Source of the DNA: Pelomyxa schiedti
Lineage: Eukaryota; Protista; Evosea
Length of the DNA: 64,000 nucleotides
Assembly (NCBI GenBank): GCA_020536535.1
Contig: JAHLWZ010000843.1
Location: 1-64,000, forward strand
Direction of reading: 5' to 3'
Part shown: positions 14,605-49,500 of the stretch, piece by piece
Position numbering within the stretch: position 1 is the stretch's first letter
Layout of the letters: every line of letters begins with the position of its first letter
Translations under genes and position numbers: made by a program
The notes under the pieces: model-generated
What the model was told of the DNA's origin: nothing
Databases searched by the model: none
What the model saw: only the letters and a program-made list of their open reading frames with translations

Positions 14605-16330
14605 TCATAATTGAAAACTGATTCTAATTTGAATAGGAGGTGCTCCTCGGATTGGCCAAGCAAGAGTGAGAATGTGCTGTAGAACTTCGAGTGGTAGGTT
14701 GTGGTGAGAAAGTGGACAGGATGGGGGTTCGCGGCAGAATGCTATTAACATAACCCGCATTTCACTCCATCTGGGTTTTGTTCCATATACTCGTTTGACA
14801 ATACCTACAGCCATTACAGCTTGGTTCTCAACTAGAATCAATGTTCCGAGCTTCGGGTGAACGGAATACTCTTCAATGAATAGACGTTTTCTTGGGAGAA
14901 TGATGACATTGGCCCGTTCTCCTTGGTGAAGGATTCCGGTCACAGTATGTTGATTGTTTGTGGACTTGGATCTGGAGCACTGGGTAATGCCAGATATTCT
15001 TCCAGTAAATACCGCTGTATGAACAAAGCATAGAGGCTCACAGCCAGCCCATATCCCATTCTTGGAATGAACAACGTGAATCTTCAAAGAATATTGTGAA
15101 TGCGGAAGTACTATTTTGTGGTGACCTGTGCACTGAACCAACGAACAATATTTGGCTTGGATCCTCCTGAAACTATGACATCCCCATGTTTGAAATCGCT
15201 CTTTCCACAGGCCCGTGCATTAACCCCAACAAAAAATCCTGGAGTCACCTGTTTGCAGTCCATGGGAAATTGCTCAATTGACTTTGCCATCGTGGTTATT
15301 CCCGGCGGAACTATATGAATAGAATCGCCAGCTCGTAGGCTTCCATACTCAACCCTACCAATCACAACTGTGCCAATACCACCAATCTTCTCAACAGCAC
15401 AAATAGGTATTCTAAGTTGGTCCCCCATTGGTGGGCGCTGGTACTGGACAACTTGCATTGCTTGTAATAAAGTGGGCCCTCTGAACCAATCCATTTTTCC
15501 GGATGTCTTAACGATATTCTCTCCCGTTTGGGCGGATATGGGAACAAAGTGAATTTTGGTTACATCGTGCCCCACCTTATAAGAAGGTGAGACGCATATC
15601 AATAGCGAGAGGGAGTAAAGTGCACCTGCTTCATCATTGAAGAAATCAGGGATTGAAATGCATCAAATATTGCCTGCGACCAGTTGCATTGATCCATTTT
15701 ATTAATAGCCACGACCAGAGTTTTAAACCTGTTTGCCAAGCAAACAAGTATAATGTCGGTCAATCCTTTGCGGACAAGACTTACATCGAGTTCCTCCTTC
15801 AAAGTCCTATCAGCTCCATTTCGGATATTTCAAGTTACCGCTTTTGGTGACACAACAAACAATGCAGCGTCGGCCCTTCCGCTTGCAATAATGAGATTTT
15901 TGAGGAACTTGACGCATCCAGGAGTGTCAATAAGCCAGAATGGCTTTCGGGCCATCTTTGACAGCAAGGTTTGGTGTGCCACAATAGTAAGTCCGGTTTC
16001 ATACTCCTCTGGCAAGCGGTTACTAAGGTCAGCCAAACTATTCCCCCTACTGTGCACTTGTCAAAATTTCTTAAGGTGCTGATGTACCAAAAGAAGATAG
16101 GAAATAAAAACAAGACATGCAACTGCTGGGAAAAAAAACCAAGACCTCGCATACGTTGAACGAGGAAAGTTCATCTCCATTCCCATTATGGGACGGCGCG
16201 TCTGAGGTGGTTGGCCCCACCAACGCGGAGCCGACTCATCCAACACCATAAACCGACCCACAAGTGTGGATTTACCACTGTCGCACGGCCCAACCACCAA
16301 CCAACTCACGTGGTCCGTCACGGCGTTCAT
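14605..16330 (-). CDS. Divergent eEF1A/HBS1/eRF3-family GTPase paralog with a C-terminal box-like tail
   Basis: G1 GPCDSGKST, G2 GLTI, G3 DTPGC, G4 NKMD, G5 SAQTGEN; domain II LRIPICAVEKIGGIGTVVIGRVE; domain III HPKLGTLILVENQAVMAVGIVK; extra tail NLPLEVLQHILTLAW. Confidence 0.88.
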
Positions 16331-16370
16331 CTACACCAGGTTTTTCTGTTAAATCAACAGATTACCGTCA

Positions 16371-18022
16371 ATGAGGGGAAGAAGGCGAGGGCGGGCGTCG
16401 CGGCACGGCGGGGAGCCGGATGGTGTTGCTGTTGCCGCCGATGCAAAACTCACCGCTGCGGCCACCAACACTGACACAAGCGCAAGTGAACGCGCCGAGC
16501 ACCGATCCCACAATGACAACGAGACGGCCGACACCAGCAACAACAGCGACGGCGGCGACAACGAGGGCGAAAACGACGAGGAACCGACGGAAGGGGGAGG
16601 CAGGCGCGCGCGGCCAGAGACTCGCGAGAAGATGAGGAAGAGGCACAGGCTGGAGGCCAAGCAAGTCGACGCGCAGGTGGCGAAGATGATGGCAGGGTGC
16701 CCTCGCCGGGACCCCAGGCGGCCCGAGGTGGAGGCGCAGGCGGCGGCCCTCAGGAAGCAGACTGCAGATCGACACGCCGCTGAATCGGTGCGCGTGCGCG
16801 TGTGCGTGTGCGTGCGCGCGTGTGTGTATTATATATTATATGTGCATTTTCAATACAAACTTTAGTGATTTTTTTTTGGCGAACTGGGTGGCGGTTTTTG
16901 TGTATGAGTTTTGTTCTTAAAGCAACTGTTCTAGGCGAATTTTGTTGAACCCACGCCGGAAAAGATAGAGGAGCCAGTAATTCCTGATTCTGTATTGAAT
17001 CGGCGTCTCCAAAAGCAGAAGCAACTTGTATGATTTCATTTGTTATTAATAGTACTAAATAGAAATTCCCAGACTAGTTTACTTAAAGATGGATGGTTTT
17101 CGTTTTAATACTGCCACAGGAGCAACAAAGGCATAAAGAGCTGGAACACATCAGACGTGTAGCTGAATTAGCTGCTCAACCTTCACCAGATGAGATAGAA
17201 ACTCAACAAATTTCCGCTCATCTAACTCCACATGGATTCAAAATATTCAAGGTTTTGCCTTCGAAAATTCCCGCTTTTTCATTAAGCTTTTTTCTTTTGG
17301 TAGGTTCCAGCTGATGGCAGCTGCCTGTTCAGTGCCTTAGCAGATCAATTGACTCGACTTTCTTGTGTTTTCCCACCTGTGTGCACAGAGTTTTACACCT
17401 CAGCAATCAAACACTCGTAGGGTGCACATGATTTGGTGAAATTCCTTCGCAATACTGCTGCACACTACATTGAATCACACCCAGATCTATTTGTCGGTTT
17501 CATTGAATCTGATAACCCAAAATGTTTGCAAACCACATTGCTCCCTTTCCCATTAAATCTTCCTCAGCTTCCAATGCTCAGAAAGTGCAAGCATACTGTA
17601 AGAAGATCCGCAATGGTGACTTGTGGGGAGGGCAGCAGGAAATCGTTGCACTCGCCAACGCTCTTGGATGCACTGTTCACATCCACAACACCTCAGAAAC
17701 ACCGGTCATAATTGGCCCCTCTGACGACACACCCCACGAAACACCAGCAACAGTTACTAGCACAAGCTCCACTACAGTGGCTCCCACACAAGAGCAAGAA
17801 GAGGCCAACGACCCATCCAGTGTCAGTGAAACAACACCCCAAGGCAACAAGAAAAAGGGCAGTACAAACAACAAGAGAAAGGGTACAAAACTAGCAAACT
17901 CCACAGCAGCAACACACAGGCCCCCTGTCACTTTCCCGCACCCCAATCCAGTTCTGCACATCAGCTTTCACCTGCATGCCTACACCCTAGGCGAGCACTA
18001 TAACAGCGTAGTATCCCTATGA
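16371..18022 (+). CDS. OTU-domain deubiquitinase, OTUD6/Otu2-like
   Basis: N-terminal RKRHRLEAKQV...DRHAAE coiled region, catalytic VPADGSCLFSALADQL, LWGGQQEIVALA and HAYTLGEHYNSV. Confidence 0.92.
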
Positions 18023-18110
18023 CAACACACACCCAAACAACCAGAACATAACCCATTCCTTCAGCATTCGGGGCTTTGTGTTTTTCCAATTTGTAAAAAC
18101 CAAACAAAAA

Positions 18111-21100
18111 ATGTCGACGTCGGTTCAGCCGCAGGAGGAGAACGACAATCAAGGGGAGGAGGCAGCAGAGAAGGGCGAGGGGGACGAGGTAGCAGGCGAA
18201 GAGGAGGCCGACGAGGAAGAGGAGGAAGAAGGGGAGGGGGAGGCGGAGGATGAGGATGAGGATGAGGATGAGGATGAGGAGGAGGAGGAGGAGGAGGAGG
18301 AGGGAGAGGACCGAGGTGGCGCCGCCCAGGATCAGCAGCAGGGTGGGGCGGAGAAGGCGGACGGCGGGGGATCCATGGAGGACAACAGCGGGGACGACGG
18401 CGAGGACTGCGGCGGCACCAATAACGGCGCCTGGGGCGAAGACGACGGCGGCGGCGGCGGCGCCCCGCCCCCCGACACAGAAACAACCAGCAGCAGCAGC
18501 AGCGGCGCGCAGGAGGGGGCAGCCAGGACCCACGGGGCAGGGGAGACGGCAGGAGGGGCGGGGGGCAGGGGCAGGGGCGCCCCGTGGCTACGACTGCCTC
18601 CCCGGGTGCGCCAGCGGGGGGCGGGTGTGGTGCCTGGACTGCGGCGCGGTTCTGTGTGTTACACACGACCCGTTTGTGCACAACTTGCCGGCTCTGAGGT
18701 AGCTTGGTGGTCGTGGTTGTTGCTTGCGCTTGTGCGTAGTTGTTGGTATCTAGTTGTCACTGGGTGCTTTTTTTTTTTTGTTGTTGTTGTTGTTGTTGTT
18801 GTTGTTATGATTATTATATGGATTTGTTGGCTGAAAGAGGACAAAGGGGGCATGGAAAGAAAATCAGTTTGGATGACCCAACTACAGTTCCTAGTGTATT
18901 TTGCGCGAGACACACTAGCAGATACACTGGGTGGTGTCAAGTGGACAAGGTTTGTCTTATTTGTTCCCTCATCCAGCTGGTTTTTCCTAACTACAAATTT
19001 CCTTCTTTACCAGACTCTCATTTGCCCAACTTGTTACTCAGAGTCACACCAAGGCCATGCCATTGTATCATTGGCTGACGCACGCTTACAAGTCTCCAAA
19101 GACATGCCCTCACTCCGTGGGATTTGTACGGGAAAAAGCGAGGCCCAACAAAAAATACAAACCCAGCTTGATACTATCACCACATTGTACCAGTCATCTT
19201 ACAGAAATTTATGCACTCAAGTTATTACTCACTCCCACAGAAACCCCAACTATTAATAACACTCTACAGATAGGCTTACTGATAGAGTCTCTAGAAAAAA
19301 TGAAACTCTCCCTCAGTGCCTCTATTGCCACCTCCCGAAACCTTCAGGAGAAACAACTTAAAGAAGCTCTTTCCAAGTGCAGTCCTTCTCGTCAAGTTAC
19401 ATCACTAGTGGTAGGAAATAAATGAAGCACAAAGGAATTTATTTACCACTCCACAGGAAAGGCTCCTGTCTTTAGAATCCACGCCAGACAACAGTTCAAT
19501 GTTATCAGTATATTCGAGTTTATATCCCCTGAGGCATTCCTTTGAAGAGTCTGCAGATAAGGCGATAGATCCATATTTAACTCCGCTTCCATCTATCAAA
19601 CTTTGTGGGGTTGAGGAAGTCAAGGCAACCATTTTGAAAATGTGTTGGGAATTTGAAAACTCTTCCCCATCTGAGAGTACCAAGCTGAAAACCAAACAGC
19701 CTAGTACAAACAAAGAAACAATTGTCGAATGTACTCAAACAACACATCAGAAATTTCCTCAAGGTTCCGCACCAGTGGACACCCAAGTCACGCAATCGGT
19801 GGAACCTTCTTTTTCCACTCAATCAACTGTTGCTTCTTCTTCTCAATCTACAAGTATTTCTGCAGCCCCCCGCTCAATCGCCCCATCACCACCAAACCCT
19901 ACGGCACCTGTTCCTTTTGCACGAGAGTGCAAAGACTTCTATACTTTAGGACTTCACAATGACTCCGTATTACTGTGGTTAAAAAATCATGGAATATCCA
20001 AGCCCTCACATGTTCAGCAGAATGTACTGACACATATTTTTTCTGGTATCTTCCCATTAATCAGCTGTTCTATGGTGATCAAATCCAGGAGAAAATGTCT
20101 TCCTTCAAGCAGTACCTAGCACTGGCCGAACCACCTCATTTATAATTGCTGCCCTTAATGCAATAGATTACAGCCGTAGTCTTTGTCAAGGGCTCTTCAT
20201 TTGTCCCACTCTCACAGTTGCACACACAACATTCCAGGTATTTTTTTCTTTTATCTCAGGAAAGAAGTTCCCATAATAACTTTTAGGCGATGCAAGATTT
20301 TACTTCAAATATAACTCTTTGCACTCTCCATAGTCAAGTCAACCCCCATGCTGCCCTTATTATTGGAACAATAGACAGTATTGCTGAGGTTTCGTTTCTA
20401 ATTAACTTTTGCCCTTCTAATCACTTTAGGGGTTAAACAGTGGGAAGTTCAGCATTTCAGCCGTAAAAATGGTAGCTTTCTGTCGTGCAACAAGAATTAT
20501 CCCTCCGTATGTAAGGGGCAACCTTGCCTTATTTATCTAATGTGTCCCCATACAGTGGCCTTTCCGCTTCAATAAACACTCTCCTTAAGCACGTACCTCT
20601 GACAGCACAAGTTTTGATGTTTGACCGAGTTCCTTCCTTTGATACACTCGATGTACTCCACAGGTTTGGCAAAGATAAAGCCACTTCCATCACCCAATCC
20701 GGTGAGGCAAGGCCAGCCACCCCCTCAGCCTCTACAGCTCCTTCTCCAAACAACCAAATCAACGCACACAGCCCCACCCCAAGCCCCAGCCCCAGCCCCA
20801 CACCCGACACCCCAAAGCAAAGTAGCTCCTCCAACCCCGAAGGTCCTGCCCCAACAACACCAAATCCAATCACAACAACAACAACCCCCACATCCACAAC
20901 CACCCCGTCTCCGCCGCCCCCAGCATCCCAAGTCCCATCATCCGCTGCGTCCTCCGCGCCGCCCCGCTCCACAAAATCCACGCCGACCAAGCCCCCTTCG
21001 CCCCCAGCGAACCAGCCATCTTCCTCGTCCGCTAGCTCCCCGGCACCGGCACCCACCAGCGCCTCGGAGCCCTCGCCCCATAATGGTGGTGGCGATGGTG

Positions 21101-21693
21101 GTGGTGCGGTGGCCAAGAGTGCCACCACTGGCACCCCGGCGGTGCCGGCGCACCGGCTGAAGCTCTACTACGCGGTGATACAGCAGGAGTACGACATATC
21201 GCAGGTGTTTGCCCACATTGTGCAGCACATGTCTGGGAAGCACAGGAAGGTGCTGCTGGTCCCCTCGACGCTCAAGAAGCAGGACAGCCAGAGGATCGCG
21301 GAGCACCTCAAGACCCACATAACCAAGTACCCTGTTTCCAACCTGTTTGGCGCCAAGAAGGAGGACCCTGAGTGCAAGGATTTCGTCAAGTCCAAGTCTG
21401 CGGCTGCAGTTGTCAACAACTATGACTTGATATCGATATCTTCTTCCACTCTAGTGATTGTTCAGGGTGTATCTGTTCTCCCATCACCAGCCATGTGTGT
21501 AATTCTTTACTCTTTACATACTATCAAAATGCTCAGATAAAATCCCCAATCAACTATTTACCACTATCACAGGCTAAAGAACCTCCCGGAATTGGAAGTG
21601 ATCTTTTTACTTTTAGAGAGTCACAAATCAGGACTGGCAAGGTGGGGTGAGACTGTCAAAATTCCGTTTACCGAAATCTTGTTTGGTAGTTAA
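18111..21693 (+). CDS. Acidic N-terminus + two B-boxes + coiled coil + degenerate DEAD-box (eIF4A-like) helicase; one apparent frameshift near 18540-18580
   Basis: B-box1 CLPGC..WCLDCGAVLCVTHDPFVH; B-box2 CARH..WCQVDKTLICPTCYSESHQGH; Q-motif DFYTLGL..GISKPSHVQQ; motif I AVPSTGRT; Ia CPTLTVA; no DEAD sequence. The 3' exon structure is approximate. Confidence 0.72.
18240..18305 (+). repeat. (GAGGAT)n/(GAG)n coding microsatellite giving poly-Asp/Glu
   Basis: Directly visible tandem GAGGAT then GAG repeats. Confidence 0.9.
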
Positions 21694-21760
21694 AGAAATA
21701 AACTGGGTTACATGATTCTGCTTTATTTTCTCTCTCTTTTTTTTTTTGTTGTTGTGCTCA

Positions 21761-24700
21761 CTACGACTGTAACATTTTGTTTACGATCCAGTCCAGTCCC
21801 TTTTTTCGGATGCAGTATATTAGAACATTACCAAATGAAAGGTGTGGAGATGAACCTCATATAGTCCATCACCAGAAGTAGCACAACAGGCCTGGACAAA
21901 CCACTTCCTTGTCCTTATGTGGTGCAGACCAAGTTGGTCAGTTAGTTCGCCTACCGGCATGGCAGCCGGCAAATCTTGTTTGTTTGCAAACACAAGCACA
22001 ACGGCATCGCGGAGTTCATCCTCGGACAGCATTTTCTGAAGCTCTTCGCTGGTTTCTCCTATGCGTTCCCTGTCATTCGAGTCTACAACGTACATAAGAC
22101 CCTGGGTGTTTTGGAAGTACTAATGAAAGTGAGTGAGAGAAAGAGTGTGAATGTTGGGGTTGTTTAGTGTAACCAAGTGAGTGTTCATACATGTCTCCAT
22201 AGGGGTCTAATTTTGTCTTCTATGGTGAATTAGTTGAGAACATAGTCAAAGTCGTATTGGAGCAAGTCAAGTTCTTACCGCCTCCAGTATCCCACACTGT
22301 AAGGTTGACGTTTTTGTAAGTTACTGTCTCAACATTGAATCCAATGGTAGGTACTACAATGAACAAAGTGCGTTAGAATCAAACCTGTTTTTGGCGCTCG
22401 GGATAGAACTTACTGGTGGTAACAATTTCACCAAGTTTAAGCTATCGAAGACTTAGGTGAGGGAAAATGATGATGTGGTCAACATACTTTATACAGAATA
22501 GTCGTCTTTCCTGCAGCATCTAAACCTGAGGGTGAATTGAGCAAAGGAAACAGTTGAAGGTATGGTTTATAGGTACGCATACCAACCATCAACAAGCGGA
22601 ATTCTTTCCTTTTCGGTAACCATCCTTGAACAGTTGTGAACGTGACTGAGGCCGCTCGCTGAAGGAGTGAGGGCCTTCGAGCATCTTCTTCATCCCGAGC
22701 TCTCAGTCTTTTAGCGAACTGGTGAGAGTGTGGCCAAATATGGAAGGAAGCTACGACCTTTCGTAATAAGTGTGAGTGACGGGATGGTTCATAAGATATC
22801 GAAGTTTCCAGATCTCTTGCCCTGCCAAGCTGCTCGTTCCAGAGGCTCTGGTTTATGTTAAGTGGTATTTTTTTCACTTTGAGAATGTACAGGGTCTCTG
22901 GAATCAACGTTTTGGCAATTTTGCATATTCGTCGGTTTGGAGAACCAAGTTCCGTAGCCTCCCAGTCATAGGCGGGGGATACCCTCACATCCCTCAACGT
23001 CTTAGATTGAGCTGGGGAAAAAAAGGAATACCTGGTGTATAGCACCCTCCATAATTCATTTGAGGAAGAGAGAACTCTGAAAGCACTACTTGTCCGCCCT
23101 ATGGATATGAGGTCCTAAAACTGGGATGAAAACTGGCAATGATCCATCAAAATTCAAACTTTGGCACTCAAGTACAGAAGAATCTCATGAAGAACTTCAC
23201 GAGGAAAATTCTTGAGGGTTCCAAAGATAGATTGTTGCTCCTGAGATGGCTTATTCATCTGACTGGAACCACCTGATATTGCCGCTGTATGCAACCACCC
23301 ACAAGAGACCTGAAAGTAGTTATTTGGGAAAATTGACGGAGTCCTGCATACCGCTTTAATATTCGTGTTAGACATCGTAAACGCTTCGACAAGCGTAGGT
23401 GCAATATACTCTTGTTTCAAAAATTGACCACACTGTCCATTTTTACTTGAACCAAAAGTGTATCTGTCTTTATGTTAAAAAGAAAATGAGAAACTGTTCT
23501 CAACTTGCATTTTTCCAGAACTTGTAACTATGGCACTATGTGCCGCACTAAATGCTCCATTTGCTGACATGGCGATAACTCTATCACCTCGTGTGCACAG
23601 TTCAACATTGAAGGAGTCAATAGGCCTGCAAAAATATGATTCCCAGTATTATCTTCCATCGCCCATACGTGGGAACCAGAATATTTTGATCGACGGTGTG
23701 GCCGCACTGGCTCCTTCTCCCCATTGATAACACTGTATTATGTAACCCCTCAGTACTTGAAGTTGGCACAGTAGCGAGCAGTGTGTGATTGTCACCACAT
23801 GCCACAATTTCAATTGCTGGAGTCCCTGTTGGCAAAGGAACTGGTTGTGGAGTCGTTCTATCAATGACATCGCCAAGCCCAAGCTGGCCAAACCTAAGAA
23901 AACGAGTGAGATCGTTAGCAGGAGATCGCTTTCGTACCTATTTGAACCACAAGTAAATACGGTACCAGTTTCCGTCATATATGCAACATGTTGACCACCG
24001 CAAGACACTTTCCTGATTGGTTGCGTGAGTTTAACTTGCTGGGGATTCTCTCTATCCTATTGGAAGAGTTATTAACAGAGAAACAAGATTTTATCCATAC
24101 TTTTGTGTCACCCAACCCAAGCTGCCCTTTAGAATTAGTGCCCCATGAGAAAGCACTACCATCAGAACAGATAACTACAGAAAAGGCACCACCAGCACTA
24201 ATGTGAGAAGGTCTCGAAAGAGATTCCAGTGGAGTATGAAGTGCCTGCACCACAGTTGGTGCTAGTGACTTGCCACATATTTCACCCCACATCCACACAT
24301 CACAGACGGGAGAAGCTTCAAGTGCGAGGCAGTGCATGCCACCACAAGCAATTTCAGCAATTACGTGGCCGTACAATCTAATAAGAAATAATTAAAATTC
24401 CCATGGAAGTTATATTGTCACATAAATAAGAGCCTAATACACACCCAACAACCGGGCGAGGGATTGGCTTCTCCTGACAAGCCCAAGGCGTTGCACCCAC
24501 CATATTATTGGTAGTGGCAGTAGCAGTAGCAGCAGAATTTGTAGCAGCACCTTTAGGCGGTGCTCCCTTTGCTGGGGTAGCGCCCTTGGCTGTTGCAGGA
24601 TTGGTTTTTGATGCAGTGACGGCGGAGGGATTTGGGGTGGGAGTGGATACAGGTGTAGTTGTTCCACTGCCGCCTCCGCAGGAGTATACTTCCCCTGTGG

Positions 24701-24937
24701 AAGACAGAATCAAGGTGACTGCACCACCACAGGAAACAGACTTAGCATTAACTCTGGAACCAAAAAGTGTAGCCACAAATGCTGGGCACTGTCTAAAAGC
24801 AAAAAAATGTTAATTTATTGTTTGCTTTTAAAAAAAGGCAAAACAAACATAGGTCCCTATGACCTTTCGATGGAATCACCGTGGCCAAGTTGGCCGTGGG
24901 AGGCAACGCCCCACGTGTAGACGAGGCCCGCCGGCAT
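21761..24937 (-). CDS. RCC1-repeat + F-box + C-terminal Arf GTPase fusion protein
   Basis: RCC1 repeats ([60 protein letters not shown]); F-box [26 protein letters not shown]; open frame into [74 protein letters not shown]. Confidence 0.88.
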
Positions 24938-25181
24938 TATGGGAGCCGGACGAGATTCAGGTGCTGAAGTCATTATAGTGTGAGTCTCGGGGTCGACATT
25001 GGTGGCGAATTTGGTGGTTACCAGCATGCTTCGGTTACGGACTCACAGGTTTTAACCGGTAAACCGTTTTACACAGTGTGTCTCTGGACTTATTGCAGAA
25101 AGGCTTTGCACAACCAGTATTGAGGGGTTGTTAGTAACACAAAGAGTCGCAAGTTCCCGGGGTAATCTGTGTCAGTACAGA

Positions 25182-28100
25182 ATGGAAAATCAGATTTGGG
25201 CGAATCCAGAACAAAACCCAAAATTACACGCCGCCACGGGGAAGAACGCAAAGAGGAAGAAGGCAGCCGCGAGGGCAGCTGCCGCAAACCGTGACGAATC
25301 CGACGAGAGTTCCTCTGACAACAGCGAAGCCCCAGAGGCCCCCGATTCCCCGAGGAGGGCCACGGGCAAGCCTGAGGACGACCCCGTCTCCTCCTCTGAG
25401 GAAAACGACCAACACGACGAAGGCGCGGGCGCCAGCGCGGCCGCCACCACGAGCAGGGGCAAGGGCGGGCGCGGGAAGAGCCGCGCGGCCCCCAAGCCCG
25501 CCGCGACCCGCACGGGCCCGGCGGCGGCTCCCCCTGCGCAGCCAGCCGCGGCGGCCCCCACTCCGGGCCGCAGGCAGGCACGCCCAGCGCGCAACCCCCA
25601 GCTGGCAGTGATCAGATTCCTGCGAGAGGAATGCAGCCGCCACAGGGCGGAGGCCAGCTCGAGCACCCCCACTGGGCCAAGTGCCACGACTGGTAGTACT
25701 GGTGCTGCTGCTGCTGCTGTTACGACCACTGCTAGTACGACGGCCACGAGCTGCGGGGGAGACGATTATGGGTGCGCGCGGGAGGCGCTTGAGAAGCTGC
25801 GGGAGAAGCACGGGGTGAGGGCCGCCGCCCATAATTCCCACCCGCAGCTGTTTGCCCTCAAGTACGTGCAGCACGAGTGCGCCCCTGAGAGACTGGCGGA
25901 CCTGAATGGCGTACCAGCTGGATGCAGGGGTCTGGTGCTGAGCCATTCGCGGAATTCCGGGGGTTGCGAGTGGGCCGTTGTTGCCAGGCCCTTTGACAAG
26001 TTTCTCAATTATGGGGAACCTTTGGTAATTGCATCTTTGTGTTGTTTCTGTTTAATCTCTTGCTGGTTCTGGTTTTATTTCTTTGGTATTCGAAAACCCT
26101 AAACAAAACAAAAAGGCTCCAGAGATGGATTGGGGTAAATGCAAGATATATGAAAAAATTGATGGAACTCTGTGCATTTTATACTTCTACAATGGTGAAT
26201 GGATAATGAGTACAGGCGGAAGTGCTGATGGAATGGGCCAAGTCAAGTCTGCTAGTGAGAACAATGGTCACCCAATTATTTCTGTCCCACCTTTTTTTTT
26301 AGGTACTTTGACTTTCTGTGATCTTTTTTGGAGAATATTTAAGAAAAGTGGTTACTCTACACCCTCATCACCAGAGGCAATTAATTACACTTTCATGTTT
26401 GAACTCGTCTCCCCTCTCAATCGGGTACTCATACCATATGACACTGAGGCTCTTTATCTACTTGGAGCTAGGTCGATTCAAACTGGTTCCGAACTCGATC
26501 CGGCGCAGGCAAGCAGATTAGCTGGTGTTCCCTACACATTGTGTCCACTGAGGGAAGGTCTATGCACCTACGAGCAGGTGATACATGCTCTTAGAATGTG
26601 TGACCCACTCAAGCATGAGGGGTTTGTAGCAGTTGATTACACACGTGGTATCAGGGTCAAAGTAAAACACCCTGCATATGTATGCATGCATCATGCACTG
26701 GGTGACAAGCACTGGGGTGCTGATAGATTAATAGAGATTGTGAGAAGTGCTGAAGTGGGTGAAGTTCTGGCATACTTCCCTGAACTGAAAGGAAGGATTG
26801 AGGAAATGGCTGACATCTATTCTAAAATAGAGCAGAAAATGACAACAGAATGGGAAGCCTGCAAGTCTATAGATAGGAAGAAATTTCAGATATTTTTGTG
26901 CAATACTCCATTCCCTGATACTATGGAAGCACTACGAAGCGGGAAATGTACCTCAGTTCGTGATTTCCTTGCCAGTGTTGAGATAAAGAAACTTCGAGAG
27001 ATGTTTGGTATCTCTTCCGGGAAAGAAAAAGACAAAAGAAAACGAAATAAGCGGGGGAAGGCACAAGAGAACGAGACCAACTTGGAGAATGGAACAAGTG
27101 AAGCAAACGAGCCTCTCGATCGGCTCGAGGAAATACATCCTCAATATAGGATAGTCCATGGCTCAGAGGACTCTGTGGATCTCGACGTAGTTTACATTGT
27201 TGCAAATATGCCCTCAGTAGCTCAGTGTCACGCTTTTTGCAACGCAGGGGCAAGTTCAAGCCCAGTAGAAAACCGAAACATCGCAACCGTGTCAAATGGA
27301 GTCATATCAAAGTGTCTAAAGGGGCTACCAGATGAACTAAACAATGCCATTAGAAGAACTTTCAAGCTCCACGTAGAAAACAATTCCCTAGTGTGCCCAA
27401 TTCTTAGGAATACAGGCAGAGATATCAATGGGAAAGCTAGAGTATCCCTGCAGTCCATCCTTGGGTTACTAATACACAACACAGATGCAGAAACTAGAGC
27501 AGGTAGGCATTTTCTGACACTTCTCAGAAATTAACTTGGAAAAGTAATCGAATCGGCTGTGAAAAGTGCCCTCCACTCGCAGGATATACAATCCATGGCT
27601 AATGCACTTAAGACCATTACTCTTCAAGCAGTTATCCCTGTACTCGGAGTTGAAGAACGCAAGCGGATTGCCTTTCAGGTTGGACAACTACTTGTAAGTT
27701 TCACTTGCATTCATTTTTAATTAATTTAAAACAGCTAGGCCTTGATTCAAAATGTCGAACTTTACACAAAGAAGGAAATCAGTGATTACTTCCCTGAAAC
27801 TCGCCCATTGTTGTATCGAAAGCCGGTGCTATCTCCAGAAGAAAGTGACCTGTTCATCCAGTCGCTGTAAGTTCTTAATGGCATTTAATGAATATTCACT
27901 CTACTAGTCTCCGATTATGTAATTCCATTTCATCTCGTAATACGACAGTTCCTCTGCAAATTCCTCCAGAATGCTTCGCCCTTCCCAAACCCATTGAGTC
28001 ACTTTGTATATTTGACTTTGATGCCACCCTTTTTGCTTCTCCTTCTCCAAATCCCTCTCTGTGGACTGAGTCGAGCCTGCGAATCTTGAACTCAACGTGG

Positions 28101-29290
28101 GTGTGTATCTGCTCACCTCATTTCAAGAAGGAATAACATTGTGAAGGAAGAAGGAGGCCTTAATTGGTTTGGTTCTGCTGAGTCATTAAATCCTCCTTAT
28201 GTACCGCAACTGGCTCCTGAGTCTTTTTGGACTGCCTCTCTTGTTTGTGCTCATGACTGTTTTTAATAATTCTAACACTACTTGAAAGGTCACCAGATTT
28301 AAAGCGATCTCTGGGTTGACAGGAAAAGTCCTCCTCACTGGCCGCACACAAATGCACTCTGCACGACTCCTAGACCTCCTTTCACAACAAGGCCTTCAAT
28401 TTGATTTGGTGATTGTGCGCGAGCTCCAACGCGCACCTGGTCACCAATCAGGCTTATCTGATTGCCTTCGCACAGTAATTGGGTCTTGGTGCATGCCCTC
28501 TCTTCGATTCAAACAGGAGGCAATTAAGCATCTGCTACAGGCCAATCCACATGTTCACACTATCGAGCTTTGGGATGATAATGAAGCACAGATGACTGAA
28601 ATAGCCAAGCACGCAACACTGTTTAGTTCACCAGGAACGACCACTTCTTCACACCTTGTGGTACCCCACAGAACGATTCTGTCCCAAACTGCGGAACGCG
28701 ACCTCGTATCGCGACTAATTGCCAGTTCTCCTAACAAATTCTCGCTCCATGAAACTACCTCCTACGTTGCAGCCGTACTGAACCCAGCCAGCAAAGAGAG
28801 GTTACTTTCAGCCATAACCATTCCAGAAGGCTGGACAATTCATGCCACGCACATGACTATTCACCTCGGTCCCGTGCGAAACAAACCCTCACGCGAATCC
28901 AAACCCAAAGCCAACCCCAAAGGTGCCAACAAAAAATCCGGCAAAACCTCAAAGGCAAACAAAAGGGGACCAGATAGCACAAATTCCGACGAAGAGGACA
29001 ACAACAATTCCACTGAATCAGTGCACTACAAACTAGGAGAGCAAATGGAAATAATAGCTACTGCAGTGGGAAGAACAGCCAAGGCTCTTGCTGTCAAAGT
29101 GGAGGGAGTTCCAACAAGCAGGAGATTGTGTGACACCGGTGGGGTACCACACGTCACAATTGCAACTAACACTGCTGGAGGCAAGCCAAAGGACAGCAAG
29201 GAGATTCACGCGTGGGAACCTCTTGCCGCTCCCATAACCCTCACCGGCCTAGTCACCGCTGTGCAACAGTTAAGCCTCACAGCGACGTGA
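25182..29290 (+). CDS. Multi-domain RNA repair protein: Rnl1-type RNA ligase + nucleotidyltransferase-like + HAD phosphatase + 2H phosphodiesterase
   Basis: Ligase: CRGLVL, ARPFDKFLNYGE, EKIDGT, FELVSP, LYLLGAR, EGFVAVD, RVKVKHPAY. NTase-like: HGSEDSVDLDV. HAD: IFDFDATLFASP, LLTGR, IELWDD. 2H: HMTI and HVTI. Short GT-AG introns join all parts in frame. Confidence 0.88.
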
Positions 29291-43589: not shown

Positions 43590-46500
43590 ATGGACGAGCT
43601 GGACATGCTGCTGGCCGAATTGGATGCAACTGCACGCGGCTCGGGAGCGAGGGTGGTGCCCTTCCAGGCCGCCGAGTACGTTGCCGGCGAAGAAGGGCTC
43701 CCGCGCAGCAGGCAAGTTGTCTACGAATCCGCCCTAAGGAGCTCCCTCGAGTGCGAACCCCTCGCGGTACCCCGGCGCGCCAAGTTGGTGCACGAAGGGG
43801 CTTGCGCCACTCAGGAGGATCTCGACCAGTGTGCGCAATTGGGCCAGTTGGACGTACCTTGCGACCAGCCTCGTCCTCAGCCTCAGCCTCAGCCTGAGTC
43901 TCAGTCTCTGACCCAGGATGGAGGGGAAGATAAAGAGATTTGCAATTTGGTATTGAGAATCAGGGCCCCATCTGCTGGCGGGGATCACCTGGAATCAAAA
44001 GAACGTGATAGTTCCTCTGGTTTTGATTCTGATCTGGATTCTGATAGCGTGGAATTACCACCAGATGGGGTGGAGGTGAATATCTGTGTGAGAGGATTTT
44101 TGGTTGAGACATCAGTGGTGTCTAGATTCCAAAATTCTACTGACAATGATTATTTGGATGCAGAGTTAGTGTTTCCTCTTCCAGAAGGTTTGTAAACTCC
44201 TTTTCTTTTTCTAAAAAATATCTATGAAATAAATCGAAGAGACCTGAAAATTTTCTCTCTAGGAGCCACTATTTGTGGGTATGGATTTGATGTGAATGGA
44301 ACTTTAGTGGATGCAGTCATTGTTGAGAAAGACAAGGGAAGAACAGTGTATGAACAAGAACTCAGAGAAAATCCTCAGGAAGGGGCTTCACTTGTGGAAA
44401 ACGTAGTGGGTAATGTATTTAGGACGAGGTAAGTGGTTTTACAGCTTGGTGTGATACTAAATTTCTCACAAGGATATCTTCCATTCCTAAGCACGGGTTT
44501 AGAGTTATAAAGGCCGGTTATAGTCCCCTTAATTATCAACTCTGCTCAGTCTTGCCTTATAGGTCGTCTTTGCCTCTGAACTGGAGAGAATAGGTCAAAA
44601 TATGAAATATTGCCTTCCATTAACAGTCTCTGCACTTCTGAGACTCTTTAAGCTTGATGTATGTGCACAATCACATAGTAACACAAAATAAACGGAACTA
44701 TTGAACTTAAGGTAACAGTTGAGTTTGAGAGAGAACTTTATGGATATCCACAACTTAGCAATGAAATGAAAGTTATGTCGGCCCCAGCAACTTTTTCTGC
44801 TTCACAAATAGGTGCGACAAAGGAGCCAACAAAAATACTCAAATAATGTTAAAGGGAACCTTTCTTCTTATGCACTCCATGTTGTAAGGCAGTCTGTTAT
44901 CCCATCTGGGATATCTTTTACGTTACCTATTAGTGCAGTCCCTCTTCCATCAATTCTTTTAGAAACTGATGAGAAACTCTCCTATTTTTGTATCAGAGAT
45001 AAAGGAATCCCTTCCAATCGTGCACATTCCAAAGTAGCTTCATTTCACTTGGCCACACTAAGCTATGTTCACAGACAAAACGAATAGGCGTATTTTGGGA
45101 CACTTCTGCAAGTGCAAAAAATTCTGCAGCAACGGACAAGTGAGAAAGCAATTTTTTTTGTCCCTTTCTCTACAGGTGTGCCAACACGTTCTTTAGTTTC
45201 TGTGAGGTAGTGTATAGAATCTGTGTCCAATTCGAACCTGAAGAAATAGCACTGTATTACTTTGCTTCATCTATTTCAGAAGTTAAAATATTCACAGTGT
45301 GCTTCTTTTCAAAAAAAAAAAAAAATGGCCAAATCACCCACAGGCACCAATGCCACTGATAGTAGAACTTCAATATGCGGAATATACAGGCGGAACCAAT
45401 TTGAGTTGTTTGTCATCAATTAAGGAGAGACTGTGTGATTTCTATCTGCTTTTCTCTGATGGCCTCTGTACATGGGGAGATCCTGTATTAAATTTAGTAA
45501 CCTACCTCTCTTTGATGCAAGATTAGAACCCCACAGTGAAACTTCCCAAGCCAGTACATACCTTTTGTAATGGAGATGGCCCAACAAATTTCCCTCTTCT
45601 AAAACTCATTGCCAAAACTACTGGTGGAACATTCTTTAATCTGAAAACGACTCCCACCCAGTAATGTTTTCATACATTGGTCCTTTAGGCTTACTCCCTC
45701 TTCCAAGGTCTATAGTTGATTCCCTTTCTCACGAGCCTCTGATGGTTCTCAGCTGGTCACTCCAAATTGGCAGGGTGAAAGTTGAAACCAACAGGGATAT
45801 CTATCCATTATGCCCATTTCCCATTTACGGCATGTTTGAGATACATGGAAAACTGGCAGATCATTCCTGCCCAAGTTAGCTTTGTTATTTATGATGACTA
45901 TGACTGACATTTTATTTAGCCACACTGGTTTTAAAGTTGGGCCATCTAACCAGTGGCCCCATAATTCAAAGAGAATATCGATTAGTACCGTCTCCAACAT
46001 ATTCTGGACTAAGTACCATGTAATCCATCATATAATGGAACTAAAGTGAATTAAGTTGCACGGCAATGGGCTATTAAAAAAGTTGATAGTTTACTTCTGG
46101 AATCACACAGTTCTCCAGTGCGCGACTTAGTACTGTCTTTGGGAAGGCAATACCAGTTAGTATACATTTATAAATTACGGCTGCGTAATCATACAACTCA
46201 GTTTTGTTACACCAAACTCTTCCCTCCTTGTACTGAGTACCTTAGACCAAGTACCTTAATCATTTTCTTTTTCATCGATACCAAACAATGACTAGTTCTT
46301 GAAACACCAAGTTGAGCCACCCCCTTGTCTCCCTGAAGTTTTACAGCAGTACTTGCTGAAGATTGACGGAAGAAAAGTACCATTTTCCACATTAATTATG
46401 GCAGTAACTATAGGATTAGAGATTGGACCAGAAAAAACGTGAACAGAAGGCCGTATACATGAAGTCTTTATGGCACCAACAATGCTCACTAAGATCCAAA

Positions 46501-49500
46501 CACTACGATGGTACCAAAGAGGTTATTTCTTTCTTTTTCAGCCAAAAATAACACTAGTAGCAACCTCTCTTATGCCATTTTGCTGATCTGACGAAGCACG
46601 TGGATGTTTGGGGAGATCCAACTGTGGACTTCATTCCAGTTTCTCTTTCCCTCGAAATAGTTTCCTTATCCTTAAAATTTAAAGGAACCCATTGTGGAAG
46701 AAGCGGAAATAATTCCTGAAGTTGAAATCAAAACTTGTATCGAAAAGTGCAGTGATTTTAAGGAATTTGTATTGTCCAGATATATGAGCCAATTTCCAGA
46801 GATGCAACCCAACTCTAGTCAGGTCTGCAAACTGCTGAATGATCTTTATGAAGGTAATCACATACCTTTTTTTTTCCCTTCTAATGCAAGAAGGGAGGTT
46901 AAATCCATCTCTGGAAGAGCAAATGTTGAAAGAACATGGTAGTAACTATGCAGCATGGATAGATTTTTCACACTTCTGGGATCTTTATGTGTGGTGCAGC
47001 GACAATTGCTCCAATAAAGAGGTTCTCTCTCGTGTTGAGCTACTCAAGTATGATTGTAACTGTGCCGATGCTTTGTGCTGCAGAGACTCTTGCCGCTCCC
47101 TTTACCTATCCGAGGCAATGAGTATGCTGTGCCCTCTTCATGAAATCCGCCCAGCTAGAGAGTTTAGTTTTTTGTCCGCAAGACATAGCCGTGCTGTATT
47201 AGGAGTGAAAAAACACATTGTCTGTGCAGCCCTCGACAATGCATGGAACAACAGCCCTCAGAATGTCTTATCAGCACGTTGTGAATGTGACCCAAGTCTT
47301 GAACAGGAACTATGCAAACCTAGCGATTCACTTACCGTTTTTCTTGAGCCTCCAAGAACTTGCATCACATTTGAGCTTGAAGACATTCGCGAGGTCACCG
47401 TTTCCAAGATTAAGGAGTTGCTTGAAGTTGAAGGGTTCCCAATAAAAGACCAACTTATTTCTTGGAATGGTACCCCCCTTGCAGACAGCAAGTATCTTCC
47501 TCTTCGTTCTTTTTCCCTCTAAAGAGGAAAAGATTTATTTTTGAATACAACTTTTCTCAAGGCTGCCCCCTTCAACTAACAATGAAAAAATCCCACATGC
47601 CGTTGGCTGTCTTCCAAGATTCCCCTAAAATCCCCCTTTCCTGTGAGAGAGCTCTGTTTTCCATGCTATCCATTCCTCCACCAAGTAATATCAAGATTTT
47701 TCGGGTTGGAAATGCCCTTATAAAGGTATCACTTCTTTCAGAGACACTCCCCAAGGAAACTTGTCTAAAAACCATTAATTTTCTATCTACAGAGTTATAT
47801 ACGTGGTGAACATCAAACCCCTTACGAATCACGGTTTTTTGAAGTTCTCTTCCAGGTTAATTGTCTGCCCGCTGCATATAACTGTTTCAAGTAAATCACT
47901 TGCATTAAAGATACCACCAGAATTTCCAGAAAAACCGCCCCTAATGAAGATGTGTACACCTGTAATACACCCTGACATAACACCTAATGGTGAAATCGGG
48001 GGAGACGTTTCCCAACTCTGTTTACATAATTGGAATCCATCTATTACTTGTATATCAGAAAACCTGCTCAAAAATTCTTGCATTAATCAAGGTGGTAGTT
48101 GTAAATATTCTCAGCACTCTCAGTTCGATGCTTTCTCAGGACCTTTCACCTGAGATTAGAGACAAAGCTTATATACACTGTCTAGAATTCGCCTTGACTG
48201 AAATTCCTCAACTTCAAGACATTGCACAATACACAGGAAGTACTGAGTTCTCCTCTTTTAATTAATTAACAGCTTATGACTTCTTCACAGACTCGTTCAA
48301 GCAACTACGAACAGTAGTATCTTCATCAGAGATCGATCCTGCATTGAAGTCACATTATCGCAGCTCCGAGTCCCGACAAACTGTGGAATACACTTACCAA
48401 GTACTTCCTCGTTGGATTTTTTTTCCCGATTCTAAAATTCAAACAGACTTGCCACTCCACTGTCACCGATCCTGTCCAAATTCTACAACTAGCACTTCTT
48501 GTTGAGAGATTTCCCGATTTTGCCGTCAAGTATGATTTCTGTTGGGTAATAATCAACCATTCTCACCTGGTGCAACAAAAACACAGAGTGATTAGCAACA
48601 TCGCGGAACTGGAGCTTGACAATGCCCAGAATATTAGAGTGGCTGCAGCTTTTGCTGAGAAATTAACTCGATTCAAGTACTTTCCCTTATTTCCGGGGCT
48701 TTCCCACTTTTCGGTAAACCTACAATTAGGACTGCAGCTGACCTGTATGAAAGGGTGTTACAATTACGACCTGAAGAACCTCAGTCCTATCGGGACCTAG
48801 CCCTGTGCCTAGTTCAAGTAAACGAATCAGGAGGTACGCCAACTCCTCTCACAGAAATGATTCTAAGCAAGACCAAGAGAATTTGCAACGTGCATTGACT
48901 TTGTTGAACCGGGTTGTGGAAGGAGGTATACCGTGTACAACGAATATGTCCTTCCATTCAAAATGAACAGAATGGGATAGAAGATTTCAGCAGGTCGAAT
49001 TAACAGCTGTGAATGTAAACTCCAGTCCCTCTAATTTTTTTTTTACCTGGAAAAATAGGATATGTACTTTATATGGAAGATTGTACAAGAGCTTGGTCTC
49101 TGTTCTGAAGTAAAACTCCCAATTTCCCCTACGTTTCTAGAGTGCAATCTTGATTTGGATATCAGGGTAGTTCTTACATGGTAGAGTTAATATTCCTTCT
49201 CTACAGTTTTCTTATGCTTTTTTAAATGCAGGAATAATTCCGCAGACGTGGTATACAACCTAATGCCTTGTATCAGAGTCAACTGACTAATAACCAGGAT
49301 TTGGTTGTTGTTGAACCAACGGGAGAGGAATGTTCTCCATTCCACAATCATACGAAGATAGGAGGTGAGTGAGCAATATTGCTATCAACAAAGCCAACAA
49401 AATAACCAAGGGGTTCTGAGTGAGGATTTCACAGAAGGCTTTGGCCCTGTCGTTTATTCGATATCTGATGCAGTGGAAGGCCAGTACGATTTCTATGCTT

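What the first reader, a model, noticed from the sequence alone, without database searches (positions are those of the whole stretch)
14605..29290. Candidate decoy-and-ubiquitin locus: three catalytically altered NTPases fused to E3-type modules, plus a DUB and an RNA-repair enzyme
Seen: five consecutive genes are (1) an eEF1A-like GTPase with switch-II His replaced by Cys and a box-like tail, (2) an OTU deubiquitinase, (3) a B-box/B-box/coiled-coil protein ending in a DEAD-box fold with degraded motifs I-III, (4) RCC1-F-box-Arf lacking Gln71, and (5) a multi-domain RNA ligase/end-healing protein. Established: eEF1A, eIF4A and Arf1 are targets of bacterial effectors (Legionella Lgt/SidI and RalF, Burkholderia BLF1, Shigella IpaJ); F-box and TRIM modules recruit ubiquitination. 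Inference: the altered NTPase domains act as baits or substrate receptors that route bound proteins (host partners, or symbiont/pathogen effectors) to ubiquitination. This would be an integrated-decoy type system in a phagotrophic protist. The adjacency could also be chance in a genome full of domain shuffling.
Basis: partly seen in the sequence, partly recalled or inferred. Interest (0 to 1): 0.78.

Follow-up and report, generated by a model that had tools for sequence, protein, structure and literature searches.

The report
Ancient F-box protein with Arf bait
The five neighbouring genes are likely an ordinary, unrelated stretch, but one belongs to a little-noticed protein family found in distantly related single-celled eukaryotes that joins a predicted ubiquitin-tagging adaptor to an Arf switch lacking its usual off-switch residue, likely a bait that would catch Arf-binding proteins for tagging.

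Summary
The five genes are real (Pelomyxa schiedti by database name), but a coordinated decoy locus is not supported. Gene 2 is an intact Otu2/OTUD6-like DUB and gene 5 an intact RNA-repair enzyme. Gene 3 has no RING, and gene 1's tail matches no family. The neighbours are housekeeping genes at similar spacing. Gene 4 is the real finding. It is one spliced RCC1–F-box–Arf1 transcript with Glu at Gln71. All 16 RCC1–Arf proteins retrieved lack Gln71 (13 Pro, 3 Glu) yet keep the GTP-binding motifs; none of 154 other long Arf proteins has Pro or Glu there. Named members span three amoebozoan lineages and kinetoplastids; a 2021 supplement also lists the architecture in Thecamonas, Mastigamoeba and Euglena, while its text calls such fusions generally lineage-specific. 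Best reading (0.45): an SCF receptor whose GAP-resistant Arf domain binds the cell's own Arf partners for ubiquitylation. TRIM23 also lacks this Gln yet is an active GTPase, so 'dead bait' is not shown. Single origin is neither recovered nor rejected. Anti-effector decoy remains possible (about 0.12).

The parts
21761..24973 (-). Gene 4: RCC1 propeller - F-box - Arf1-like GTPase (NCBI model P0001, 794 aa, starts further upstream near 25027); the core finding
   Evidence: Pfam RCC1, F-box and Arf all above curated cut-offs; 14 introns joined in RNA contigs of X3 and X4; my model equals P0001 apart from the first intron boundary
23260..24936 (-). RCC1-like beta-propeller exons of gene 4 (approximate bounds)
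   Evidence: Pfam; AlphaFold model and Foldseek hits to HERC2, RPGR, HERC1 and UVR8 RCC1-like domains
23032..23213 (-). F-box of gene 4, split by intron 23115-23159
   Evidence: PF12937 E 4.7e-9 and PF00646 E 1.7e-7; three helices in the model
21764..22610 (-). Arf1-like domain: G1, Thr48, DxxG and NKQD intact; no N-terminal Gly2
   Evidence: PDB ARF1 hits E 1e-86; motif table
22218..22279 (-). Glu at the Gln71 position; codon G|AA split by intron 22220-22278
   Evidence: Joint seen in RNA contigs; codon read; same residue in P0001
14605..16330 (-). Gene 1: divergent eEF1A-like GTPase, switch-II His replaced by Cys (DTPGC at 15914-15928)
   Evidence: NCBI model P0181 covers only the part from NKMD onward
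14608..14772 (-). C-terminal tail of gene 1 with a half-F-box-like motif at 14668-14700; family unassigned
   Evidence: No Pfam hit; no credible phmmer relative; weak match to own F-box profile, 2 of 1000 shuffles as high
16371..18022 (+). Gene 2: intact OTU deubiquitinase, Otu2/OTUD6-like
   Evidence: Pfam OTU; both PDB hits are Otu2; spliced RNA; stop-free model
18111..21693 (+). Gene 3: acidic N-terminus, two B-box-like motifs, likely coiled coil, degenerate DEAD-box fold; no RING; frameshift in the window near 18561
   Evidence: one DNA contig of X1 differs by -3 and +5 nt here, which puts the frame in register
25182..29290 (+). Gene 5: Rnl1-type RNA ligase, nucleotidyltransferase-like domain, HAD phosphatase and 2H phosphoesterase
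   Evidence: middle domain 44-47% identical to Lak phage and Bacillus phage G proteins

Best explanation
Gene 4 is one spliced RCC1–F-box–Arf1 gene of a widespread protist family whose Arf domain lacks Gln71, and it likely works as an SCF ubiquitin-ligase receptor in which a predicted GAP-resistant Arf domain would catch the cell's own Arf-binding proteins for ubiquitylation, while the other four genes are likely unrelated neighbours. Shown: the fusion, its splicing, Pro or Glu at position 71 in every member retrieved, and intact GTP-binding motifs. Established: Gln71 is needed for GAP-stimulated hydrolysis, and F-boxes dock on Skp1-Cul1. Inferred: the domain binds GTP but is not switched off by ArfGAPs; lying C-terminal to the F-box, where substrate-binding domains usually sit, it holds GAPs, GEFs or coat effectors near the ligase; the RCC1 and Kelch propellers add localisation, nucleotide release or a second binding site.
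For: One RNA contig in each of two runs spans RCC1 through Arf. 16 of 16 RCC1-Arf proteins lack Gln71 (13 Pro, 3 Glu); G24, D26, T31, T48, D67, G70, N126, K127 and D129 are invariant. Of 154 other long Arf proteins, 21 have a non-Gln residue in some domain, 1 has no motif, and none has Pro or Glu. Reverse tests: the only two distinct GGPDK sequences visible in the Vargova supplement have an F-box-like segment before the Arf, and 2 of 3 metagenome loci with the Pro motif have F-box-like sequence upstream, the third ending at the contig edge. Acanthamoeba AcaArf1i is F-box plus Pro71-Arf with no propeller, so Arf can be the only partner-binding domain. Gln71 is critical for GAP-stimulated hydrolysis (PMC6724607, passages). 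H-Ras Q61P and Q61E hydrolyse slowly and Q61P does not transform (PMC6813200, passages of a review), which fits a trap rather than a signal.
Against: No binding or activity was tested. Human TRIM23 has Lys at this position yet cycles GTP when ubiquitylated (PMC12075517, passages), so loss of Gln does not prove a locked state. The F-box passes Pfam's cut-off in 10 of 16 members, is weak in 3 and undetected in 3. Switch I/II conservation (0.94, 0.96) is not special: 16 control fusions give 0.86 and 0.97. Non-Gln residues also occur in Arf fusions without any E3 module. Many of the 154 controls look like mis-joined gene models of ordinary Arf1, and family members are related, so the Fisher p (1e-12) overstates independence. 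The Arf-domain tree does not recover one clade.
Confidence: 0.45

Rival explanations
1. TRIM23-like regulated switch: the Arf domain is an active or slowly cycling module that localises or gates the ligase, the RCC1 propeller acts as its built-in nucleotide-release factor or binds the substrate, and hydrolysis uses a non-Gln mechanism.
For: TRIM23 has Lys at position 71 and is an active GTPase tied to its own E3 activity. HERC1's RCC1-like domains bind ARF1 and release GDP (PMC6692442, passages). Kelch and RCC1 propellers are common substrate-binding folds (own knowledge). Several members keep a helix-like segment before the first strand.
Against: Pro has no side chain that could take a catalytic role (inference). 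A propeller-less F-box-Arf with Pro71 exists. The amphipathic helix beats shuffles in only 3 of 16 members and not in gene 4 (p 0.76). Gly2 myristoylation is impossible in the fusion.
Confidence: 0.3
2. Anti-effector decoy at the single-gene level: the Arf1 mimic catches Arf-dependent proteins of engulfed bacteria and routes them to ubiquitylation.
For: The named carriers are mostly phagotrophic protists (own knowledge of the taxa). Solved complexes of bacterial effectors with ARF1 appear among the fold matches. The partner-binding surface stays Arf1-like. Pelomyxa has three paralogs and houses endosymbionts (PMC10579272, passages).
Against: Low copy number and 56-75% Arf-domain identity to gene 4 across distant lineages suggest a stable host role rather than an arms race. 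There is no sensor or NLR part. The symbiont paper's main text has no 'effector' or 'secretion system'. The fusion has no Gly2, which a protease such as IpaJ needs (own knowledge).
Confidence: 0.12
3. The five genes form one co-regulated decoy-and-ubiquitin locus.
For: Three altered NTPase domains and a DUB do lie within 11 kb, and genes 1/2 and 4/5 are head-to-head pairs with starts 41 and 209 nt apart.
Against: Similar spacing to Rpb2 (106 nt); housekeeping flanks; paralogs on other contigs; the DUB is the Otu2 type; gene 3 lacks a RING; gene 1's tail is unassigned. No genome was held, so the background rate of such fusions could not be counted.
Confidence: 0.05
4. Repeated independent F-box-Arf fusions with relaxed selection on Gln71, not one family; in some members the F-box is a remnant.
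For: The Arf tree needs 4-5 changes of the family label and gene 4's Arf groups with canonical Arfs. Vargova et al. call such fusions generally lineage-specific. The F-box is undetected in 3 of 16.
Against: The same Pro in 13 of 13 non-Pelomyxa members; the same propeller-closing CGW motif followed by the F-box in 15 of 16; one clade is not rejected (p-AU 0.345); the two kinetoplastids group together on the RCC1-F-box part (98/97).
Confidence: 0.08

Closest known systems
Multidomain ARF proteins of Vargova et al. 2021 (PMC8358228): AcaArf1g, MbaArf1e, MbaArf1f, TtrArlX1, EgrArf1h
   Same: The supplement table lists RCC (+/- Kelch) + F-box + Arf for the first four and RCC1 + Arf for EgrArf1h. 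The visible N-terminal part of MbaArf1f looks orthologous to gene 4 by eye.
   Different: Section 13 calls such architectures generally lineage-specific; the main text has no 'RCC1' and no 'glutamine'. The shared Pro/Glu71 and the spread across supergroups were not mentioned in what I read.
TRIM23/ARD1
   Same: E3 module with a C-terminal Arf1-derived domain lacking Gln71 (Lys) and no myristoylation; antiviral autophagy role.
   Different: RING-B-box-coiled coil, animal-specific and self-contained; gene 4 uses an F-box, has a propeller and carries Pro or Glu.
HERC1 (RCC1-like domains plus HECT)
   Same: An RCC1-like propeller within a ubiquitin ligase that acts on ARF1; HERC domains are top fold matches.
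   Different: HERC1 binds Arf in trans and uses a HECT domain; here the Arf domain is in the same chain behind an F-box.
Integrated decoys of plant NLRs (recalled)
   Same: A host-target mimic with lost catalysis fused to an output module.
   Different: No NLR or sensor, no evidence of effector binding, and deep conservation instead of rapid turnover.
Yeast Otu2 / OTUD6 (gene 2) and multi-domain Rnl1/HAD_SAK RNA-repair proteins (gene 5)
   Same: Both PDB hits are Otu2; T4 Rnl1, HAD_SAK_1 and 2H motifs present.
   Different: Gene 5 has an extra nucleotidyltransferase-like domain shared with jumbo phages; otherwise ordinary.

Membership tests
F-box protein (SCF receptor), gene 4 | F-box motif | tested here: met
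   PF12937 36.3 bits (cut-off 24.3) and PF00646 31.3 (20.5); above cut-off in 10 of 16 family members
F-box protein (SCF receptor), gene 4 | Binds Skp1 and Cul1 | not testable with these tools
Canonical Arf1 GTPase | G1, Thr48, DxxG and NKxD motifs | tested here: met
   Invariant in 16 of 16 apart from K30R in one Pelomyxa paralog
Canonical Arf1 GTPase | Catalytic Gln71 | tested here: not met
   Glu in gene 4, confirmed across the intron by RNA; Pro or Glu in 16 of 16
Canonical Arf1 GTPase | N-terminal myristoylated Gly2 | tested here: not met
   The domain is C-terminal in a 794-aa chain
Canonical Arf1 GTPase | Amphipathic helix before the first strand | tested here: inconclusive
   Hydrophobic moment beats shuffles at p<0.05 in 3 of 16; gene 4 p 0.76
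Single RCC1-F-box-Arf family | One clade | tested here: inconclusive
   Not recovered on the Arf domain and not rejected (p-AU 0.345, position 71 masked, 32 rows); no RCC1 outgroup was available
TRIM E3 ligase, gene 3 | N-terminal RING domain | tested here: not met
   No RING hit in the frames scanned; the N-terminus is acidic low-complexity sequence
TRIM E3 ligase, gene 3 | One or two B-boxes | tested here: inconclusive
   Cys/His patterns by eye; only a faint Pfam hit for part of B-box 2, E 0.016
TRIM E3 ligase, gene 3 | Coiled coil after the B-boxes | not tested
   Judged by eye only
DEAD-box helicase, gene 3 | Walker A Lys, motif Ia and DEAD motif | tested here: not met
   Lys to Arg and Ia degraded against eIF4A; no DEAD word in the model
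eEF1A, gene 1 | Switch-II His and switch-I arginines | tested here: not met
   Alignment to 1jny and 3wy9
F-box or SOCS box, gene 1 tail | Full box motif recognised by a profile | tested here: inconclusive
   No Pfam hit; 13-residue helix-1 match only, 2 of 1000 shuffles as high, motif chosen by eye
Integrated decoy system | Fusion to an immune sensor such as an NLR | tested here: not met
   No such domain in Pfam scans of the five genes
Integrated decoy system | Binds a pathogen effector | not testable with these tools
   Needs experiment
OTU deubiquitinase (Otu2/OTUD6), gene 2 | Cys-His-Asp motifs and best match | tested here: met
   DGSC and GEHYNS present; 2 of 2 PDB hits are Otu2
Rnl1-type RNA ligase / end-healing enzyme, gene 5 | KxDG ligase motifs, HAD DxD and two HxT motifs | tested here: met
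   All present in the stop-free model; profile hits below full-length cut-offs for the ligase

The most novel reading that the evidence does not exclude
An overlooked ARF-family paralog as old as the last eukaryotic common ancestor, kept in phagotrophic protists across Amoebozoa, Apusozoa and Euglenozoa, that uses a naturally GAP-proof Arf1 mimic (Pro/Glu71) as the bait of an SCF ligase and so destroys Arf-binding proteins, including Arf-dependent effectors of engulfed bacteria.
Probability: 0.15. Interest if true: 0.82.

Novelty: new variant of a known kind. Interest (0 to 1): 0.52.

Why it matters
F-box-Arf fusions were reported as scattered, lineage-specific oddities. A shared architecture with a fixed Pro or Glu at the catalytic Gln across Amoebozoa and Euglenozoa would add a candidate ancient ARF paralog. 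It would also show a natural 'substrate-trap' GTPase wired into a cullin ligase, a route for ubiquitin control of Arf GAPs, GEFs or coats. It is testable in Acanthamoeba, which has a named member (P0129). The parallel with TRIM23 suggests E3-Arf fusions repeatedly drop this Gln.

Tried and rejected
No genome was held, so the genome-wide count of NTPase-box fusions was not possible. Earlier-findings look-ups returned nothing. The tail search gave only the gene's own model and one repeat protein, which I rejected. The Atlas search with P0129 gave no usable hit; it did not hold P0181 or P0001. Complex prediction of propeller with Arf domain was not available, so there is no verdict. The single-sequence fold of gene 3's C-terminal frame was unusable (pLDDT 39). 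The full-length gene 4 model has pTM 0.53 with low-confidence linkers and gives no domain arrangement. The Pro motif is absent from viral contigs. In L002 the F-box lies about 180 nt after the Arf stop, so I counted it as a separate gene and the locus as uninformative. Switch-region conservation was rejected as family-specific evidence. The amphipathic-helix test was inconclusive. Missing RNA cover over the B-box region and most of gene 1 is no evidence either way (contigs only). Literature searches for the family found only Vargova 2021; the TRIM23 2017 paper was not held. The supplement cuts sequences at 400 letters, so switch II of MbaArf1e/f, TtrArlX1 and EgrArf1h was not seen.


Full report
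Setting. The window is intron-rich eukaryotic DNA. The spliced product of gene 4 equals database protein P0001, labelled Pelomyxa schiedti, apart from my first intron boundary. No genome was held. The genome paper reports 7.43 introns per gene, almost all GT-AG (PMC8887013, passages). Pfam scans of 150 of 232 long frames outside the block found eIF2-gamma, Rpb2, RhoGEF-PH-FYVE, HEAT, VIT, UBC, TPR, Xrn and LRR domains. This is an ordinary gene-dense stretch.

Gene 1 (14605-16330, minus). It is eEF1A-like. Against solved archaeal EF1-alpha the switch-II His is Cys and two switch-I arginines are replaced; the P-loop Lys-Ser-Thr and NKMD remain. The neighbouring eIF2-gamma keeps DCPGH. In-frame splice paths through the G domain exist, but the NCBI model P0181 starts after it, and no spliced RNA joint was listed for this gene. 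The tail has no Pfam hit. A phmmer search of 1.84 billion representatives returned 2 proteins: its own model and a repeat protein. A profile from the gene 4 family F-boxes matches 13 residues, and 2 of 1000 shuffles score as high; the motif was picked by eye. An E3 role is not established.

Gene 2 (16371-18022, plus). The OTU is intact, four introns are seen in RNA contigs, and both PDB hits are Otu2. It is likely the conserved ribosome-associated DUB (family role recalled).

Gene 3 (18111-21693, plus). From B-box 1 onward it models as one stop-free frame of 855 codons with 9 GT-AG introns; three of them are seen in RNA, all in the DEAD half. The DEAD remnant matches Pfam (E 1.9e-6) and weakly eIF4A and DDX19, with Walker A Lys to Arg and motif Ia degraded. 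There is no RING, so it is not a TRIM E3 by definition. The window has a frameshift near 18561; one X1 DNA contig differs by -3 and +5 nt, which puts the frame in register. RNA linking B-boxes to the DEAD part was not seen.

Gene 5 (25182-29290, plus). It is one frame with 7 GT-AG introns and intact-looking ligase, HAD and 2H motifs, with Rnl1 and HAD_SAK_1 profile hits. It is an RNA-repair enzyme, not a decoy.

Locus. Strands run -,+,+,-,+ with gaps of 41, 90, 68 and 209 nt, against 106 nt from Rpb2 to gene 1. The two other Pelomyxa paralogs of gene 4 lie on contigs of 119,817 and 61,795 nt, not the 80,791-nt one. Only one of three claimed E3 modules is solid. Synteny and the genome-wide background could not be tested.

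Gene 4 (21761-24973, minus). RNA contigs of runs X3 and X4 (one sample) join 14 introns from the RCC1 repeats to the end of the Arf domain. The codon at Gln71 is G|AA across an intron, so Glu. RCC1, F-box and Arf pass Pfam cut-offs. The AlphaFold model has a propeller, F-box helices and an Arf fold with low-confidence linkers; Foldseek's best matches are HERC2, RPGR and HERC1 propellers, then ARF1.

The family. Two searches for long Arf-containing proteins listed the best 120 of 799 and 120 of 660 hits, 170 distinct proteins. Sixteen carry RCC1 repeats. All 16 lack Gln71: 13 have Pro and the 3 Pelomyxa proteins have Glu. Two of the 16 (P0123, P0129) are near-copies. Named members are Acanthamoeba, Cochliopodium, Pyxidicula, Apiculatamorpha, Papus and Pelomyxa. 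Of the other 154, 21 have a non-Gln residue in at least one domain, 1 has no motif, and none has Pro or Glu. Many controls look like mis-joined models of ordinary Arf1, and members are related, so the Fisher p of 1e-12 is not a test of independent events. GTP-binding residues are invariant apart from one K30R. The F-box passes Pfam's cut-off in 10, is weak in 3 and is not detected in 3. Fifteen of 16 share the propeller-closing CGW motif just before the F-box.

Reverse tests. In the Vargova supplement GGQDK occurs 559 times and GGPDK 3 times, in 2 distinct sequences: AcaArf1i (annotated F-box) and BsaArf1e (F-box-like by eye, partial). Sequences there are cut at 400 letters, so this is a lower bound. 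A metagenome scan for the Pro motif gave 3 loci. L003 has RCC1 and a weak F-box upstream, L001 has the end of an F-box-like segment upstream by my profile only, and L002 stops at the contig edge.

Origin. On the Arf domain (48 rows) the 13 Pro members group with one outsider at 88/65, and the three Pelomyxa proteins fall elsewhere. With position 71 masked (32 rows) one clade is neither recovered nor rejected, p-AU 0.345. On the RCC1-F-box part the two kinetoplastids group at 98/97 and gene 4 pairs with P0168 at 100/100; the backbone is open. Ancient origin is plausible but not shown, and transfer or repeated fusion is not excluded.

Mechanism. Gln71 is critical for GAP-stimulated hydrolysis in ARFs (PMC6724607, passages). 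H-Ras Q61P and Q61E hydrolyse about eightfold more slowly and Q61P does not transform (PMC6813200, passages of a review citing Der 1986). The Arf domain follows the F-box, where substrate-binding domains usually sit (own knowledge), and AcaArf1i has only F-box and Pro71-Arf. I therefore favour a GTP-binding, GAP-resistant bait that delivers Arf partners to SCF (0.45). Against this: TRIM23 has Lys there (supplement alignment) and is an active GTPase (PMC12075517, passages), and HERC1's propellers bind ARF1 and release GDP (PMC6692442, passages), so a regulated switch is a real rival (0.3). Switch conservation does not separate the two, since control fusions show the same pattern. An anti-effector role (0.12) has no direct support; the symbiont paper's main text does not use 'effector' or 'secretion system' (PMC10579272, passages).

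Prior knowledge. Vargova et al. 2021 (PMC8358228; I saw passages, section 13 whole, supplement hits and two supplement parts) list RCC-F-box-Arf in Thecamonas, Mastigamoeba (two) and Acanthamoeba, and RCC1-Arf in Euglena. They describe such fusions as generally lineage-specific and as recurrent recruitment into ubiquitin circuits. Their main text has no 'RCC1' or 'glutamine'. Searches found no paper that treats these as one family or notes residue 71; subscription papers are mostly not covered.

Verdict. The five-gene system is not supported. Gene 4 marks a conserved RCC1-F-box-Arf group with fixed loss of the catalytic Gln: a new variant of a known kind, interest 0.52.

Noticed in passing
window 27130-27500 (+): The middle domain of gene 5 (GSxDSxDxD, nucleotidyltransferase-like by eye) is 44-47% identical to proteins of 15 Lak megaphage records and Bacillus phage G gp208; no Pfam hit.
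   Followed up: partly
window 18446-18561: Frameshift between gene 3's acidic N-terminus and B-box 1; one DNA contig of X1 (depth 5) is in frame, so an assembly error or a second allele.
   Followed up: partly
window 15690-16330 (-): The NCBI model of gene 1 (P0181) omits G1-G3 although an in-frame splice path exists; likely an annotation truncation.
   Followed up: partly
window 16330-16371: Predicted start codons of genes 1 and 2 are only 41 nt apart, head to head; one of the starts may be wrong or the promoter shared.
   Followed up: no
proteins P0137, P0140, P0148: Arf fused to a 2OG-Fe(II) oxygenase has Lys at position 71 in all three; one cluster has a Picozoa member. A second fusion group with a fixed substitution.
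   Followed up: no
proteins P0127, P0141, P0161, P0131, P0142, P0143: N-terminal Arf with a long unannotated C-terminus and Cys or Arg at position 71.
   Followed up: no
protein P0165: Arf with Leu71 followed by a faint ADP-ribosyltransferase-like region (E 0.031).
   Followed up: no
protein P0168: The closest Pelomyxa paralog of gene 4 also has P-loop Lys30 replaced by Arg, so it may have lost more function.
   Followed up: no
L002 2156-2575 (-): An F-box gene begins about 180 nt after the stop of a Pro71 Arf gene.
   Followed up: partly
window 23464-23508 (-): A GC-AG intron in gene 4, confirmed by RNA contigs.
   Followed up: yes
window 44196-48900 (+): VIT, UBC-like and TPR hits close together; possibly another multidomain ubiquitin-related gene.
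   Followed up: no
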